Shown here: positions 50,601-55,029 of the stretch, piece after piece | How positions within the stretch are numbered: the stretch's first letter is position 1 | Layout: every line of letters starts with the position of its first letter | Assembly (NCBI GenBank): GCA_041389065.1 | Contig: JAWKSM010000002.1 | Coordinates: 65,556-129,555 of the forward strand | Direction of reading: 5' to 3' | From: Minisyncoccota bacterium | GTDB lineage: Bacteria > Patescibacteriota > Minisyncoccia > Phycocordibacterales > CSBR16-119 | DNA: 64,000 nt | The notes under the pieces: generated by a model | Database searches by the model: none | What the model was told of the DNA's origin: nothing | What the model saw: only the letters and a program-made list of their open reading frames with translations | Program-made: the position numbers and the translations under genes

Positions 50601-52775
50601 ATGAAACTATTAATAGTAGAGTCACCATCGAAAGCAAAGACTATAGAAAAGTACTTGGACAACAAGTACACTGTTCGTGCGTCTGTTGGACATATCAGAG
50701 ATTTGCCAAAATCAAACAAAAAAGCCGTTGATATTAGAAACGGATTTAAACCAACATACGAAATATCACCTCTTAAAAAGAAGGTTGTTGATGAACTTAA
50801 AAAAATCGCGAACAAGGCAGATGAAGTTGTTCTTGCAACCGACCTCGACCGCGAAGGTGAAGCTATTGCTTGGCACCTCGAAGAAACACTTGGACTTAAA
50901 AACCCAAAGAGAATTGTCTTCAACGAAATTACAGAAAGCGCGATCAAAGAGGCGCTTCTTCATCCACGAGAAGTTGATATAAATTTAAAAAACGCCCAAG
51001 AAGCTCGCCGAGTTTTAGACAGGCTTTTTGGATACGATCTTTCTGGACTTATTTGGAAAAAAGTTAGATATGGACTTTCAGCAGGTCGTGTTCAATCCCC
51101 TGCTCTTCGGATTATCATGGAACGCGAAAGAGAAATTCGTGCTTTCAAACCTGAAAACTATTATGTGCTTTCTGCACTTTTAAAAGGGGGTGGCGACGAA
51201 ATGCTTTTTACTTGTGACAAAGAAATTTGGGACAAAAAAGAAGCAGAAGAAATTTTCGAAAATGCAAAAGTTGGAAAATGGTCTGTTGTATCTATTAAAG
51301 AAACTGAAGCGGCTCGCGCACCAAGACCACCGTTTACAACATCGACAATGCAACAAGTTGCTTCGACGCGTCTTGGCTTTGCACCATCTCGAACAATGGG
51401 CGTGGCTCAAAAACTTTACGAAAAAGGTTTGATCACATACATGAGAACTGACAGCACAAATCTTTCAAAATCGGCCCAAATGCAAATGGTTAAATACGTG
51501 GAAGAAAACTTCGGCAAAGAATACGCCAAAGCAAACTTCTATTCAAAAAAATCTAAAAACGCTCAAGAGGCTCACGAAGCTATCAGACCAACAAACCCGG
51601 CGCGACCAGCTCTTGGAACAACAGAAGATGAGAAAAAGCTTTACACTTTGATTTGGGAAAGAGCGATTTCTTCACAAATGACTCCAGCAAAAATCCTTCG
51701 AACAAAAGTTTCTGCAAATATTTCTGATGGTAAAATTCCAAACTTTTCTATAAACGGATCTCGAATACTTTTCCCGGGCTGGCTTGCGGTAGACAAAAGA
51801 TCTCGAGGTGAAGATGTTGAAGTTCCAAAACTTTCTGAAAAAGACTCTTTGACTTTAACAAAAGCAAATATGGAAGAAAAAGAAACTCTTCCACCTGGAA
51901 GATATACAGAAGCTGGACTTATCAAAGAACTTGAAAAAAGAGATATTGGAAGACCTTCAACATATGCTTCGATAATCAAAACAATTGTTGACAGAGGTTA
52001 CGTGATGAAAGAAGGAAGAACTCTTATCCCAACAGACACGGGCGATGTCGTTTCTACTTTCATTGAAAATAATTTTGGAAACTATATTTCTGATTCTTTC
52101 ACCGCTGAAATGGAAAGCGAGTTAGACGAAATCGCTGTTGGAAAAAGAACTTATGTAAAAACTCTTGAAGATTTTTATGGACCATTTACAAAAGCTTTAA
52201 AAGAAAAAGATGGAATAGAAAAACTGACAAATATTGGAGACGCACCGGCAGAATTCCCTTGCCCAATTTGCGGTAAAAAAATGGTTTACAAGCTTTCAAA
52301 AAATGGAAAGTTTATGAGTTGTTCTGACTTCCCTAATTGCACTGGTGCGCGAACAGAAGAAGGAAAAGAACTTGAGCCACCAAAAGAAATCGGCGAAACT
52401 TGTCCTGATTGCGGAGAAAAACACGGCGGGAAACTCGTTCTTCGAGAAGGACGATTTGGAATGTTTATATCTTGCTCAAGATATCCAAAATGTAAATTTA
52501 TAAAAGAAGATGAAGAAGAGGCAAAGAAAAAAAGAACTGGTGTAAAATGCACCGATTGTAAAGAAGGAGAAATGGTAGAACTACGTGGAAGATTTGGAAT
52601 TTTCTATTCTTGTTCAAATTATCCAGATTGTAAAAATGCCATAAAAGCAAAACCGACTGGAAAATTGTGCGAAATGTGCGGAAAACTCATGATGGAAGGG
52701 ACGAAGACAATCCCCGAACGTTGTAGCGATAAGAAATGTGCAATGCACAACCTCATAAATTACAGAAGTAATTAG
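50601..52775 (+). CDS. topA: DNA topoisomerase I
   Basis: 724 aa. The TOPRIM sequence is LLIVESPSKAKTI...ATDLDREGEAI and the catalytic region is TYMRTDS. Several C-terminal C4 zinc ribbons follow (CPICG...CSDFPNC, CPDCG...CSRYPKC, CTDC...CSNYPDC). Confidence 0.95.
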   Translation: MKLLIVESPSKAKTIEKYLDNKYTVRASVGHIRDLPKSNKKAVDIRNGFKPTYEISPLKKKVVDELKKIANKADEVVLATDLDREGEAIAWHLEETLGLKNPKRIVFNEITESAIKEALLHPREVDINLKNAQEARRVLDRLFGYDLSGLIWKKVRYGLSAGRVQSPALRIIMEREREIRAFKPENYYVLSALLKGGGDEMLFTCDKEIWDKKEAEEIFENAKVGKWSVVSIKETEAARAPRPPFTTSTMQQVASTRLGFAPSRTMGVAQKLYEKGLITYMRTDSTNLSKSAQMQMVKYVEENFGKEYAKANFYSKKSKNAQEAHEAIRPTNPARPALGTTEDEKKLYTLIWERAISSQMTPAKILRTKVSANISDGKIPNFSINGSRILFPGWLAVDKRSRGEDVEVPKLSEKDSLTLTKANMEEKETLPPGRYTEAGLIKELEKRDIGRPSTYASIIKTIVDRGYVMKEGRTLIPTDTGDVVSTFIENNFGNYISDSFTAEMESELDEIAVGKRTYVKTLEDFYGPFTKALKEKDGIEKLTNIGDAPAEFPCPICGKKMVYKLSKNGKFMSCSDFPNCTGARTEEGKELEPPKEIGETCPDCGEKHGGKLVLREGRFGMFISCSRYPKCKFIKEDEEEAKKKRTGVKCTDCKEGEMVELRGRFGIFYSCSNYPDCKNAIKAKPTGKLCEMCGKLMMEGTKTIPERCSDKKCAMHNLINYRSN

Positions 52776-52887
52776 TAAAGCATGCAAATTTCTTTGCATG
52801 CGATGATTGTCTTCGTCAGGCGCAGGTATATTTTGTTTTGCTAAGCAGAGGCAAAAATACCGAGCCGGGGTCAAAATTTACGTCAGT

Positions 52888-52979
52888 AAATTTATGTGTG
52901 ACCAAAAACCATACCAGAAAGATGCTCTGATAAAAAATGTCCTAACCATAATCCTCATAAATTAGAAGCTAAAAAATAA
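52888..52979 (+). pseudogene. diverged second copy of the topA 3' end
   Basis: It reads KFMC, then a 2-nt offset, then PKTIPERCSDKKCPNHNPHKLEAKK with a stop. The topA end reads KLMMEGTKTIPERCSDKKCAMHNLINYRSN. The copies differ by synonymous codon swaps (AGC/TCT, CGT/AGA). Confidence 0.55.
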
Positions 52980-52983
52980 AAGA

Positions 52984-53008
52984 AAATCCACCATTATAGG
53001 TGGATTTT
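52984..53008 (+). terminator. rho-independent terminator
   Basis: AAAATCCACC-ATTATA-GGTGGATTTT followed by CTTTTATTTT. Confidence 0.7.
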
Positions 53009-53063
53009 CTTTTATTTTAAGCAAAACTTGCAATAAAAAATCAATGGTTGTAGAATATAATTA

Positions 53064-53295
53064 TCCGCCCACTGTGGTTAGATAGCAGAACGACTGGTGA
53101 GGAGGAAGACTGCGAGAGAAGAGACAAGTGTCACGTAAGATAGGCCTTAGTGGTGGTGGGCTGACGACTGCGTGTAGCTTGTTTCTTCTCGAGCAGTAAA
53201 ATGTTCTTTAATGCAATCGCAAATTTACGAGATAAGAAATTCTTATCGTTTGGCTCATAGCCGATTCACGTCCACCCCAACGGGTGGATTTTGCT
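53064..53295 (+). ncRNA. candidate structured small RNA, class unassigned
   Basis: Its promoter is TTGCAA (53028-53033), N17, TAGAAT (53051-53056), and its terminator is TCCACCC-CAAC-GGGTGGA plus TTTTGCTTTT (53271-53295). No ORF is present. It contains a 19-position helix, 53110-53128 with 53178-53196, with 17 pairs. It is GC-richer than the flanks. Confidence 0.4.
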
Positions 53296-53304
53296 TTTAT
53301 ATGT

Positions 53305-55029
53305 TTACGACATTGTGTGAAGTTCGTCTTCACTTCCCTGCACCACAGGAGTTTTCCAAAACTTTTTCTTGCTTAGAACTTTTTCAATTTGTGCCATTTG
53401 TTCATTTTTCAAAACTTTAAGAACAACATAGCCAGAACAGATACCAAGAACTCCAGAGAAAAATCCTTGTCCCAATATTCCCCAAAAAGTATTTATATTT
53501 AAAAAGTTATCAAAAACATTTAAGAATGAATATGCGACATAGCCCATAAAAAATGCACCGGCAAAACTTTGGAAAAATGATTTTAACAAGAAAGAATCTT
53601 TTTCATCTTTAACTTTAAAGTCACTTCTAAAATTTATCCAAAGGAAAAATGCGTTTAGTATTGATCCCAAAGAATACGCGAGCGGTAACATTACAATTTC
53701 TGAGTGATTAATATTTTCAATTCGAAGAAGGCTTTCGAAAAAATATCTAAACAGTTCGCTATTTTTAAAAATATGAACAAAATAAAAAGCAGAAATAATT
53801 GTTATTAAAGTAGAAAAAATATTTATATAAAGTGGCTTTTTTGTGTTTCCGGCAGCGTAGTAACCACGAGTGAACAAAAGTATCAAGCTTTGTGCAGAAA
53901 TCGAAATAGCAAAGAGTGCGAGTGACGCGGCAGTAAGCCTGGTGTCGTCCCAAGAAAAGCTTCCTGTTCCCAAAATAACACGGACGATTTGCGCACGTAA
54001 AACTATAAACAAAAACATTACTGGAAGTGACCAGAAAATAATCTGTCGTGCAGCAAGTGCAATATAAGAAACGAATTCGCTCATTTTTTGACCTTGGAAA
54101 AATCTTGCCAACGTTGGAAAAGCTGCAACAGAATAAGAAATCCCGATAATCCCGAGTGGAACATTTTGCAAATTCAAAGAAAATTGAAAAGTGGAAATCG
54201 CACCTTCACCAATAAGCGAAGCTATCGCCACGATAGCTATTAAAGAAATCGTACTGAGAGAAAGCCCGATAGTTCTTGGAAGCGAAGTCAGAATCATTTC
54301 TTTTAGGTCAGTCCAATTTACTTTAAAAGAAATCGCTGGGAAAAAGTGATGTTTTAACAAAACTGGAAACTGTATCAACATGTGAAGAAAAGCACCAAGA
54401 ACAACTCCGGCAGCAAGCCCTGGCAAACCCCACACAGGGTAAAAGAAAATAATCCCCAAAATTATTCCAAGATTATAGAAAAGTGGACTTAGTGCAAAAA
54501 TAAAAAACTTTTTGAACATTTGTGTGACAGATCCAAAAAGATTTGAAAGACCAAGAAAAATTGGCGAAAGAATCATTATTCTACTAAGTAAAATAAGGTC
54601 TTTTAGCTCATTACCAGAAAATCCAGGAGCAACAATCTTCACAAGGCTCGGCATAAAAATAAGACATAGAAAAGAAACGACGATCATCGCAAAAAGAAAA
54701 ACTGTAAATGTGTCGTTTAAAAATTTTCTTGCTTTGACGCTGTTACCGTTCAATTCTCCATCTTCTTTAACGCCAAGTTTTTCTACAAGAAACGGCAAAA
54801 GAACTGTCACCGAAGCCAAAGATGCAACCGAAACAAAAATAAAATCTGGAATACGAAAAGCTGCGTAGTAAACGTCGAGCGAACTCGATGGACCAAGCTG
54901 ATGAGCGAACATTCTGTCACGCACAAGACCCAAAACTTGAGAAAGCAAAGTAAAAAAGCCCAAAATAATCGCGGCTTGATTTATGTTAGAAAATTCTCTT
55001 TGCAATAAACTAAAAACTCTTTTTACCAT
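53305..55029 (-). CDS. murJ: lipid II flippase MurJ (MviN)
   Basis: 574 aa with about 14 TM helices. The N-terminus is AAIILGFFTLLSQVLGLVRDRMFAHQLG...DVYYAAFRIPDF. Confidence 0.9.
   Translation of the reverse strand: MVKRVFSLLQREFSNINQAAIILGFFTLLSQVLGLVRDRMFAHQLGPSSSLDVYYAAFRIPDFIFVSVASLASVTVLLPFLVEKLGVKEDGELNGNSVKARKFLNDTFTVFLFAMIVVSFLCLIFMPSLVKIVAPGFSGNELKDLILLSRIMILSPIFLGLSNLFGSVTQMFKKFFIFALSPLFYNLGIILGIIFFYPVWGLPGLAAGVVLGAFLHMLIQFPVLLKHHFFPAISFKVNWTDLKEMILTSLPRTIGLSLSTISLIAIVAIASLIGEGAISTFQFSLNLQNVPLGIIGISYSVAAFPTLARFFQGQKMSEFVSYIALAARQIIFWSLPVMFLFIVLRAQIVRVILGTGSFSWDDTRLTAASLALFAISISAQSLILLFTRGYYAAGNTKKPLYINIFSTLITIISAFYFVHIFKNSELFRYFFESLLRIENINHSEIVMLPLAYSLGSILNAFFLWINFRSDFKVKDEKDSFLLKSFFQSFAGAFFMGYVAYSFLNVFDNFLNINTFWGILGQGFFSGVLGICSGYVVLKVLKNEQMAQIEKVLSKKKFWKTPVVQGSEDELHTMS

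What the first reader, a model, noticed from the sequence alone, without database searches (positions are those of the whole stretch)
53028..53295. Stand-alone promoter-to-terminator unit of about 230 nt with no ORF: probable structured RNA of unknown class
A good promoter (TTGCAA-N17-TAGAAT) and a canonical terminator delimit a GC-enriched segment between the topA terminator and the murJ stop. It contains a long helix (53110-53128 pairing with 53178-53196, 17 of 19 positions). It also has smaller hairpins (GATAAG-AAATT-CTTATC at 53231-53247, GGCT-CAT-AGCC at 53252-53262). A possible pseudoknot pairs GCCCAC (53067-53072) with GTGGGC (53156-53161). I could not match it by eye to RNase P, tmRNA, SRP or 6S signatures. 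The GAGGAGGAAGACUGC stretch only loosely recalls the RNase P and SRP motifs.
Basis: partly seen in the sequence, partly recalled or inferred. Interest (0 to 1): 0.55.

Follow-up and report, generated by a model that had tools for sequence, protein, structure and literature searches.

The report
Orphan structured small RNA gene
Between topA and murJ of a tiny-genome (candidate phyla radiation) bacterium lies a real, self-contained gene for a folded RNA of about 235 bases that matches no described RNA family, is kept with compensating base changes in four sister species, and has no known function.

Summary
Window 53028-53299 (+) carries a sigma-70-type promoter, a ~235-nt non-coding stretch and an intrinsic terminator. 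The + strand folds far better than shuffles (z = -6.0). Homologues sit at the same place, abutting the murJ stop, in 4 other genomes of the same genus. All five have a promoter (TTGnnn-16/17-TAnnnT) and a terminator. 15 of 42 modelled base pairs show changes on both sides that keep the pair.

It matches none of 4227 Rfam families. It is not RNase P RNA (found elsewhere in 5 of 5 relatives) or tmRNA (elsewhere in this genome). It is not SRP RNA: no SRP RNA, Ffh or FtsY was detected in this lineage. It lacks the 6S architecture. No conserved ORF, no phage or plasmid match, and no Cas9-, TnpB- or IscB-type partner was found.

The family was found only in 5 of 8 genomes of one genus; two sister genomes have the locus without it. 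It evolves in modules: the nearest relative keeps the 3' 190 nt at about 96% identity but has an unalignable 5' hairpin of the same size.

Best reading: a new, lineage-restricted, dispensable trans-acting structured RNA. The function is inferred, not shown, and no expression data were found. The proposed pseudoknot and the RNase P/SRP resemblance are not supported.

The parts
52981..53012 (+). Upstream hairpin with a T-run that closes the topA side, just before the RNA promoter. It marks the RNA as a separate unit.
   Evidence: Read. cmscan matched only the terminator-hairpin parts of unrelated models here. It is conserved with compensating changes in G007.
53028..53056 (+). Sigma-70-type promoter: -35 TTGCAA, 17-nt spacer, -10 TAGAAT.
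   Evidence: A TTGnnn-16/17-TAnnnT promoter stands at the same place in all 5 homologues.
53063..53296 (+). Predicted transcript of about 234 nt. The start is inferred 6-8 nt after the -10 box and the end in the T-run; neither end has been mapped.
   Evidence: Fold z = -6.03; covariance model R3 scores it at 133 bits; no Rfam family matches.
53064..53106 (+). 5' hairpin of 43 nt with 14 bp, the variable module. In G007 it is replaced by an unalignable hairpin of the same size; only an AGCAG loop motif and GGUG are shared.
   Evidence: Contigs of one public run (X3) carry the G007-like allele; X1 and X2 carry this one.
53109..53197 (+). Long rod-like hairpin made of 5-bp, 14-bp, 6-bp and apical 5-bp helices separated by 2x2 internal loops. 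The purine-rich 5' strand and pyrimidine-rich 3' strand are conserved.
   Evidence: In helix 2 of the model, 19 pairs are 93.7% paired across 5 sequences, and 6 of them change on both sides.
53198..53230 (+). Unpaired linker holding the motifs GTTCTTT (53203-53209) and TTTAC (53224-53228), which are the same in all five homologues.
   Evidence: GTTCTTT and TTTAC read the same in all five rows of alignment A6. The region is unpaired in the MFE structure.
53231..53247 (+). Hairpin 1 (GATAAG-AAATT-CTTATC). The stem is kept with a different sequence in relatives (AAGACC/GGTCTT and GAAGCC/GGCTTC).
   Evidence: Helix 4 has 3 of 8 pairs changed on both sides.
53252..53262 (+). Hairpin 2 (GGCT-CAT-AGCC), preceded by the conserved linker TCGTTYGG. 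Relatives have GGTCA/TGACC here.
   Evidence: Helix 5 has 2 of 5 pairs changed on both sides.
53270..53299 (+). Intrinsic terminator: an 8-bp stem with 5 G-C pairs and a 4-nt loop, then TTTTGCTTTT. It ends 6 nt before the murJ stop codon on the other strand.
   Evidence: Every homologue has a G+C-rich hairpin and T-run here.

Best explanation
Window 53028-53299 (+) is an independent gene for a structured, non-coding small RNA of about 235 nt. It belongs to an undescribed family that I could find only in one genus of an ultra-small-genome (CPR) lineage. Records of three relatives are titled Candidatus Saccharibacteria.

Shown: a conserved promoter and terminator delimit it, it folds unusually well on the + strand, its helices are kept by compensating substitutions, it encodes no conserved peptide, and it belongs to none of the known housekeeping RNA families.

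Inferred: the RNA acts in trans as a stable particle. The long G+C-rich rod, continued by the 5' hairpin, serves as a shape-selected scaffold or a double-stranded-RNA binding surface. The invariant unpaired motifs between the 3' hairpins (GUUCUUU, UUUAC, UCGUUYGG) are the site that contacts a partner, either a protein or another RNA.

It is dispensable: sister genomes have the locus without it. It evolves by swapping whole hairpin modules. Both points fit an accessory regulatory or protein-binding RNA better than a core machine.
For: Promoter and terminator. A TTGnnn-16/17-TAnnnT promoter is present in 5 of 5 homologues, and all have terminators.

Fold: z = -6.03 on the + strand against -3.47 on the - strand. 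G-U pairs in the rod would be A-C mismatches on the other strand. G007 folds the same way (z = -5.86).

Homology: models built from one subtype find the other. R2, built from G004/G006/G002, scores G000 at 30.6 bits and G007 at 34.7 bits with filters off. R1, built from G000/G007, scores the G004-type locus at 50.8 bits.

Covariation on 5 sequences: 88.9% of cells are paired against 40-47% when partners are slid. 15 of 42 pairs change on both sides against 3-7 when slid. 0 of 500 shuffles reach the observed pairing or covariation score. RNAalifold on a plain MAFFT alignment gives 16 of 47 pairs with compensatory change.

Position: in all five the gene abuts the murJ stop.

Other points: G+C is 47% against 36.3% for the genome. 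There is no conserved ORF and a single copy in the genome. A dsRBD protein of RNase III size is encoded in 18 of 20 family genomes, so a reader of double-stranded RNA exists.
Against: No transcript evidence: no RNA run holding the stretch was listed, and the one 'miRNA-Seq' run covers only murJ and is probably DNA.

There are only 5 sequences, effectively three or four lineages, all from one genus. The alignment used for the pair counts was fitted to the model, which favours the structure.

The promoter match alone is no better than chance in this A+T-rich region. No partner was identified. Hfq was not found in 5 of 5 carriers, which removes the best-known route for base-pairing sRNAs. A target scan with the linker gave nothing convincing.

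G001 and G005 have the locus without the RNA and no copy elsewhere, so any function is not essential.
Confidence: 0.55

Rival explanations
1. A cis-antisense or convergent-transcription element. The unit faces the murJ-leuS operon head-on and ends 6 nt from the murJ stop. murJ has no T-run of its own after the shared hairpin, so murJ transcripts may read into the antisense of the RNA gene. The two RNAs would then form a perfect duplex cut by RNase III, and the RNA (or simply its promoter and terminator) would set the 3' end and stability of the murJ-leuS mRNA.
For: The geometry is constant in 5 of 5 homologues. On the - strand the hairpin at 53270-53289 is not followed by a T-run, and the scan lists no - strand terminator there. 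An RNase III-like dsRBD protein is present in 18 of 20 family genomes.
Against: Pure antisense action needs no conserved fold, yet helices are kept by compensating changes and unpaired motifs are invariant. G016 has only 36 nt between the topA and murJ alignments and G001 has 137 nt, neither with such an element, so murJ does not need it.
Confidence: 0.15
2. A neutral or decaying passenger of a recombination hot spot. The topA-murJ spacer varies from 36 to about 1300 nt among relatives and holds different inserted genes. The RNA-like unit could be cargo or a remnant of a mobile element, with its hairpins kept for DNA-level reasons such as recombination sites or terminators.
For: The spacer is highly variable, with an XRE-like ORF, lipoprotein-like ORFs and other hairpin elements. 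The unit is cleanly absent in G001 and G005. The distribution is narrow, 5 of 20 family genomes. The 5' hairpin is replaced wholesale between near-identical genomes.
Against: It is single-copy. There is no match in phages, plasmids or viral contigs. A strong promoter is kept in all five. G-U pairs make the structure strand-specific. Compensatory changes accumulate across species whose MurJ is 86-99% identical to that of the window.
Confidence: 0.12
3. A guide-type RNA, like an sgRNA, tracrRNA or omega RNA. The layout is a 5' segment that differs between close strains, then a long duplex, then a short hairpin, linker, hairpin and terminator. From memory, this resembles single-guide and omega RNA scaffolds, so it could program an RNA-guided protein.
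For: The 5' 45 nt are unalignable between G000 and G007 while the rest is about 96% identical. The 3' hairpin-linker-hairpin-terminator module is. The resemblance to guide scaffolds is recalled, not tested.
Against: No TnpB/Cas12 zinc-ribbon domain in 0 of 20 family genomes. No Cas9 in 0 of 20, although no control genome passed the cut-off. No IscB RRXRR domain in 0 of 20, although no control rang, so this result is uninformative. There is no nuclease gene among the neighbours. The variable part is a self-paired hairpin, not a free guide. The 5' leaders of G004, G006 and G002 are similar to each other, not variable. No complementary target longer than 11 nt exists in the genome. There is no HEARO or tracrRNA hit in Rfam.
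Confidence: 0.04
4. A very divergent copy of a known housekeeping RNA (6S RNA, SRP RNA or RNase P RNA) that the Rfam models miss.
For: The Rfam models for RNase P, small and large SRP RNA and 6S find nothing in this 76%-complete genome. The RNA is rod-like, as 6S and SRP RNAs are.
Against: RNase P RNA is found at other loci in 5 of 5 relatives.

SRP RNA is not found in 0 of 81 order genomes, and its protein partners are missing. The SRP_SPB domain is found in 0 of 5 genomes. The SRP54 GTPase domain is found in 0 of 5, and in the order there are only P-loop-length fragments in 11 of 61. SecY is found in 5 of 5 by the same method.

The 5' and 3' ends do not pair and there is no central bubble, so the 6S layout is not met. 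The RNA is missing from sister genomes, unlike a core RNA.
Confidence: 0.04
5. An mRNA for a small protein.
For: Short ORFs of 19-65 codons can be drawn on both strands.
Against: None is conserved in position, frame or sequence among the five homologues. The only ATG ORF in the window copy runs through the terminator. The substitutions preserve base pairs, not codons.
Confidence: 0.02

Closest known systems
Stand-alone bacterial small RNAs with their own promoter and Rho-independent terminator (trans-encoded sRNAs)
   Same: An independent transcription unit in an intergenic region. Size is about 200-240 nt. It has 3' hairpins plus a terminator, with conserved unpaired stretches between the hairpins. 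It is narrowly distributed and dispensable.
   Different: No Hfq was found in the carriers. About half of the RNA is a long, nearly perfect rod, which is unusual for seed-pairing sRNAs. No target was identified.
6S RNA (Rfam RF00013)
   Same: A rod-like, highly structured RNA of about 200 nt, made from a strong sigma-70-type promoter.
   Different: There is no closing stem between the 5' and 3' ends and no large central bubble. There is no Rfam hit even at E up to 10. It is not present in all genomes of the genus.
Bacterial SRP RNA (RF00169, RF01854)
   Same: A long hairpin with internal loops.
   Different: There is no model match. No Ffh or FtsY partner was detected in the lineage. In passages of PMC4508563 the same absence of ffh and ffs is reported for Parcubacteria, another CPR group.
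Guide-RNA scaffolds (Cas9 sgRNA/tracrRNA, IscB omega RNA)
   Same: The order of parts is a variable 5' part, a long duplex, a short hairpin, a linker, a hairpin and a terminator. This resemblance is recalled, not tested.
   Different: No effector gene was found. The variable part is self-paired. There is no Rfam HEARO or tracrRNA match.

Membership tests
RNase P RNA (RF00010) | Match to the covariance model, meaning the conserved P4 core and overall fold | tested here: not met
   No hit in the window at gathering score or at E up to 10, and none in the own genome.
RNase P RNA (RF00010) | It should be the only such gene in the genome | tested here: not met
   5 of 5 relatives have an RNase P RNA at another locus (83.8-151.6 bits), not next to murJ.
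Bacterial SRP RNA (RF00169, RF01854) | Match to the model (domain IV helix with its conserved loops) | tested here: not met
   No hit in the region or the own genome. No hit in 5 relatives at E up to 1, nor in 81 genomes of the order.
Bacterial SRP RNA (RF00169, RF01854) | The Ffh M-domain partner is encoded in the genome | tested here: not met
   PF02978 in 0 of 5 genomes. PF00448 in 0 of 5, and only weak P-loop fragments in 11 of 61 order genomes. A motif scan of the own genome was negative. SecY, as a positive control, was found in 5 of 5.
6S RNA (RF00013) | Model match | tested here: not met
   No hit. The model is weak, however: it rang in only 5 of 14 control genomes.
6S RNA (RF00013) | A closing stem formed by the 5' and 3' ends, a large central bubble and a terminal stem | tested here: not met
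   In the MFE and centroid folds of all five RNAs, the rod is internal and nearly perfect, and the 3' end is a terminator hairpin.
6S RNA (RF00013) | Binds RNA polymerase holoenzyme and templates product RNA | not testable with these tools
   This needs biochemistry.
tmRNA (RF00023) | Model match with a tRNA-like domain and tag reading frame | tested here: not met
   The genome's tmRNA is on another contig (119.8 bits). Nothing matches in the region.
RNA-guided nuclease guide RNAs (sgRNA/tracrRNA, omega RNA) | A cognate effector gene (Cas9, IscB/IsrB or TnpB/Cas12) in the genome, usually adjacent | tested here: not met
   PF07282 in 0 of 20, TIGR01865 in 0 of 20 and PF14239 in 0 of 20. The last search had no ringing control, and the Cas9 search had none over the cut-off. 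The neighbouring genes are housekeeping genes.
RNA-guided nuclease guide RNAs (sgRNA/tracrRNA, omega RNA) | A free guide segment complementary to a target | tested here: inconclusive
   The variable 5' part is self-paired. It has no match longer than 11 nt in the own genome. Foreign targets could not be searched exhaustively.
Hfq-dependent base-pairing sRNA | Hfq is encoded by the organism | tested here: not met
   PF17209 in 0 of 5 carriers; three of them are at least 92% complete.

The most novel reading that the evidence does not exclude
The RNA is the nucleic-acid half of an unrecognised ribonucleoprotein specific to this Saccharibacteria-like genus. In this reading, a shape-selected double-stranded rod has its lower helix built from either strand order. 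In G000 the 5' arm resembles what is the 3' strand of the lower stem in G002. The 5' hairpin is an exchangeable specificity module that differs between otherwise near-identical strains. This would be a strain-variable recognition RNA, for example in host or phage interaction of an epibiont, rather than a conventional regulator.
Probability: 0.1. Interest if true: 0.7.

Novelty: new variant of a known kind. Interest (0 to 1): 0.4.

Why it matters
In the three literature searches that bore on this I found no paper describing non-coding RNAs of CPR/Patescibacteria beyond the universal ones. In a 0.5-Mb genome, a 270-bp unit kept with its own strong promoter is a noticeable investment.

The family gives a concrete, covariation-supported candidate for a lineage-specific RNA in organisms that lack Hfq and, by these searches, the SRP system. 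It also shows an unusual way of evolving: whole-hairpin replacement between genomes whose MurJ is 99% identical, and possibly a strand-permuted helix.

The weight is limited. There are only five sequences in one genus, there are no expression data, and no partner is known.

Tried and rejected
Rfam. There was no hit at gathering score for the whole window. At E up to 10 on 52750-53350 only terminator-like chance hits appeared. At E up to 0.5 on six related loci only chance hits appeared.

Wider homologue hunts:
- BLAST-type search of 61 relatives found only G000 and G007.
- R1 on the family found only G000 and G007.
- R2 on 151 genomes of the order found nothing. It did not even recover G000 under the stricter filters, so that blank is weak.
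- R3 on the family found 5 of 20 genomes.
- A weak R2/R3 hit in G003 lies inside a 409-codon ORF and was rejected.
- A weak R3 hit at G000:C3 has no convincing fold and was rejected.
- The metagenome scan with a MurJ alignment gave 8 loci. Two of them (L043, L046) carry RNA sequences identical to those of G002 and G004. The others have protein genes downstream of murJ.
- The genome contigs pattern scan gave 102 stretches, of which 80 were listed. I scored 9 of those 80 with R2 and 5 with R1. Only L197, L230 and L246 are real, with the same bit scores as G004, G006 and G002. L186 and L191, also titled Saccharibacteria, look coding and were rejected. The other 71 listed stretches and the 22 unlisted ones were not scored.
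- The viral contigs pattern scan gave 117 or more stretches. I scored the 80 listed loci with R2 and found 0 hits.
- Phages and plasmids gave no match.

The longer RNAs (350-383 nt) at the same place in G017 and G019 could not be shown to be homologous.

Expression. No RNA holder was listed. The laid contigs only showed the G000 allele (X1, X2) and a G007-like allele (X3). X20 covers only murJ.

Targets. The 5' segments have no match longer than 13 nt in the own genome. A duplex scan of the linker against 1157 crude start regions gave a best energy of -26.3 kcal/mol against a mean of -13.3 (sd 3.55). That hit uses the part of the linker that is not conserved in the other subtype, so I did not count it.

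Strand-permutation idea. The G000 5' arm matches the 3' strand of the lower stem in G002 at 13 of 14 positions (11 of 500 shuffles score as high). The G000 3' arm matches the 5' strand in G006 at 10 of 11 positions (21 of 500). Neither arm gives a signal against G004, and the G007 arms give none at all. I keep it as a lead only.

Literature. Searches found no paper on such an RNA. PMC4508563 (passages only) reports no ffh or ffs in Parcubacteria. In PMC10768705 (passages only) all the SRP and sec genes named carry one locus-tag prefix, which I took to be the host's; I did not check this.

Supplementary files were not consulted.

Full report
**What is there.** Window 53028-53299 on the + strand lies between topA (50601-52775, +; Topoisom_bac, Toprim and zinc ribbons) and murJ (53305-55029, -), which is followed by leuS. 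The wider neighbourhood is housekeeping: serS, dprA, dus, a clamp-loader subunit and a P-type ATPase. The stretch opens with TTGCAA-17 nt-TAGAAT (53028-53056). It closes with an 8-bp, 5-G-C hairpin at 53270-53289 followed by TTTTGCTTTT. A separate hairpin with a T-run at about 52981-53012 closes the topA side, so the unit stands alone. The promoter match by itself is no better than chance in this A+T-rich region (3 sites found, 2.9 expected). What makes it credible is conservation, described below.

**Fold.** The + strand of 53062-53295 folds at -89.9 kcal/mol against -63.8 for dinucleotide shuffles (z = -6.03, 0 of 200 shuffles as good). The - strand gives z = -3.47, and G-U pairs in the rod are specific to the + strand. 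The fold has these parts, in order:
- a 43-nt 5' hairpin (53064-53106);
- an 89-nt rod (53109-53197) of 5-, 14-, 6- and 5-bp helices separated by small internal loops;
- an unpaired linker (53198-53230);
- two small hairpins (53231-53247 and 53252-53262);
- the terminator.

G+C is 47% (51% in the rod) against 36.3% for the genome, the 97th percentile of 234-nt windows.

**The organism.** The window lies in a 526-kb assembly that is 76% complete. Its relatives have 0.5-1.1 Mb genomes in an order with more than 80 families. Three public records that carry the RNA are titled 'uncultured Candidatus Saccharibacteria bacterium'. This is a CPR/Patescibacteria lineage.

**Is it a known RNA?** No family of Rfam 15 matches at gathering score. 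At E up to 10 only terminator-like chance hits appear. Six related loci also gave nothing at E up to 0.5.
- tmRNA lies on another contig (119.8 bits).
- RNase P RNA is not in this incomplete assembly. It is found in 5 of 5 relatives at loci unrelated to murJ.
- SRP RNA, small or large, is found in none of the 5 relatives and in 0 of 81 genomes of the order. Its partners are missing too. The Ffh M domain is found in 0 of 5. The SRP54-type GTPase domain is found in 0 of 5, and across the order there are only P-loop-length fragments in 11 of 61 (best 25.5 bits). A motif scan of the own genome was negative. SecY is found in 5 of 5 by the same method. Passages of PMC4508563 report the same absence of ffh and ffs for Parcubacteria.
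- 6S: there is no model hit. The 5' and 3' ends do not pair and there is no central bubble.

**Relatives.** A DNA search of 61 relatives found only one other genome, G007, whose MurJ is 99% identical. Its promoter and its 3' 190 nt are about 96% identical to the window, but the 45 nt after the start site cannot be aligned. Even so, they fold into a hairpin of the same size at the same place. Only an AGCAG loop motif and GGUG are shared. Contigs of one public run carry this second allele and two runs carry the window's allele.

Following murJ through the family (20 of 20 genomes have it) showed that the topA-murJ spacer ranges from 36 to about 1300 nt. In G004, G006 and G002 (MurJ 86-90% identical), a unit of about 211 nt abuts the murJ stop. 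It consists of a TTGACA/TTGACG promoter, a short single-stranded leader, a long rod, the motif GUUCUUU, the motif UUUAC, a hairpin, UCGUUYGG, a second hairpin and a terminator.

Covariance models confirm the homology in both directions. The model of these three scores the window copy at 30.6 bits (E 1.8e-6) and G007 at 34.7 bits. The model of G000 and G007 scores the G004-type locus at 50.8 bits. A model of all five finds exactly these five among the 20 family genomes, at 129-149 bits. It finds none in G001, G003 or G005 of the same genus, and none in the other three genera. G001 and G005 have the locus assembled without the unit, so it is dispensable.

Metagenome, genome-collection, viral, phage and plasmid searches added no further members.

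**Covariation.** On the model-guided alignment of the five sequences:
- 88.9% of cells form standard pairs, against 40-47% when the partners are slid by 1-3 columns.
- 15 of 42 pairs change on both sides, against 3-7 when slid.
- No shuffle out of 500 reaches the observed pairing or covariation score.

Examples are hairpin 1 as GAUAAG/CUUAUC, AAGACC/GGUCUU and GAAGCC/GGCUUC, and hairpin 2 as GGCU/AGCC and GGUCA/UGACC. A plain MAFFT alignment gives the same picture, with 16 of 47 pairs showing compensatory change. There are caveats: only five related sequences, and an alignment fitted to the structure. No ORF is conserved on either strand. The proposed pseudoknot fails because G007 keeps GUGGGC but lacks GCCCAC, and the other three have neither arrangement.

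**How it may work.** Two features stand out. First, half of the molecule is a rod whose strands are conserved and compensated. Second, the only invariant unpaired letters lie between the 3' hairpins. I infer a stable trans-acting RNA in which the rod is a scaffold or double-strand binding surface and the linker motifs contact a partner.

Hfq is not encoded in the five carriers. A single dsRBD protein of RNase III size is encoded in 18 of 20 family genomes. A linker-versus-start-region duplex scan gave no convincing target.

The main rival is antisense action on the murJ-leuS 3' end. The unit converges on murJ within 6 nt, and the shared hairpin has no T-run on the murJ strand. However, that would not require a conserved fold, and relatives do without the unit.

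A guide-RNA reading is prompted by the strain-variable 5' part and by an sgRNA-like order of parts that I recall from memory. It finds no effector: TnpB, Cas9 and IscB searches gave 0 of 20 each, the last without a working control. It also finds no free guide and no target.

A tentative observation: the G000 5' arm resembles the 3' strand of the lower stem of G002 (13 of 14 positions; 11 of 500 shuffles score as high). Its 3' arm resembles the 5' strand in G006 (10 of 11; 21 of 500). This suggests that the same lower helix is built with a different strand order. G004 and G007 give no such signal.

**Verdict.** This is a real, covariation-supported gene for an undescribed small structured RNA, restricted as far as I can detect to one genus. 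It is dispensable and evolves by modules. Its function and partner are unknown, and expression is untested: no RNA run holding it was listed. It is moderately interesting as a lineage-specific RNA of a CPR bacterium. It is not a new kind of system on present evidence.

Noticed in passing
whole genome G000 and relatives (no window coordinates): The SRP pathway was not detected in this lineage. SRP RNA was found in 0 of 81 order genomes, the Ffh M domain in 0 of 5, and the SRP54-type GTPase domain (Ffh and FtsY) in 0 of 5. Across the order only P-loop fragments appeared in 11 of 61. SecY was found in 5 of 5 by the same method. Passages of PMC4508563 report the same for Parcubacteria. Three relatives' records here are titled Candidatus Saccharibacteria, so the loss may be wider in CPR.
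   Followed up: partly
window 52776-52979: The topA ORF stops at 52775, but the last zinc-ribbon half of topA is repeated in another frame at about 52904-52979. This repeat matches the true C-terminus of G007 (peptide ...RCSDKKCPNHNPHKLEAKK). Between the two copies lies a conserved structured insert of about 140 nt, consisting of a hairpin and then a larger fold with compensating changes. The insert is shared with G002, G004 and G005 and absent from G007. It looks like an insertion that carries its own replacement gene end, or a second unknown RNA element. No Rfam hit.
   Followed up: partly
L020:3230-3612 (-) and L023:3379-3728 (-): In two genomes of another genus (G017 and G019), the same place next to the murJ stop holds a different, longer structured RNA-like unit of 350-383 nt. 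It has a TTGACA-17-TAGACT promoter and a terminator. The two copies share the first ~200 nt, and then one rod is replaced by an unrelated rod. Homology to the window RNA could not be shown, and there is no Rfam hit.
   Followed up: partly
L017, L018, L019, L032 (topA-murJ spacers of G004, G006, G002, G005): The topA-murJ spacer is a hot spot. It holds an XRE-like ORF (G006, G002) or a lipoprotein-like ORF (G004, G005) on the - strand. It also holds further conserved hairpin elements upstream of the RNA gene, for example a long inverted repeat ACCACC...GGTGGT in G002 and G005.
   Followed up: no
L032/L035 (G005 murJ): murJ of G005 is split by in-frame stops (one TGA and one TAG between two matching pieces). 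In the same genome the RNA unit is missing.
   Followed up: no
G000:C6:13514 and C6:21831: Two near-identical copies of a start region about 8 kb apart on contig C6 (a repeated gene) surfaced as the best, but unconvincing, duplex partners of the linker.
   Followed up: no
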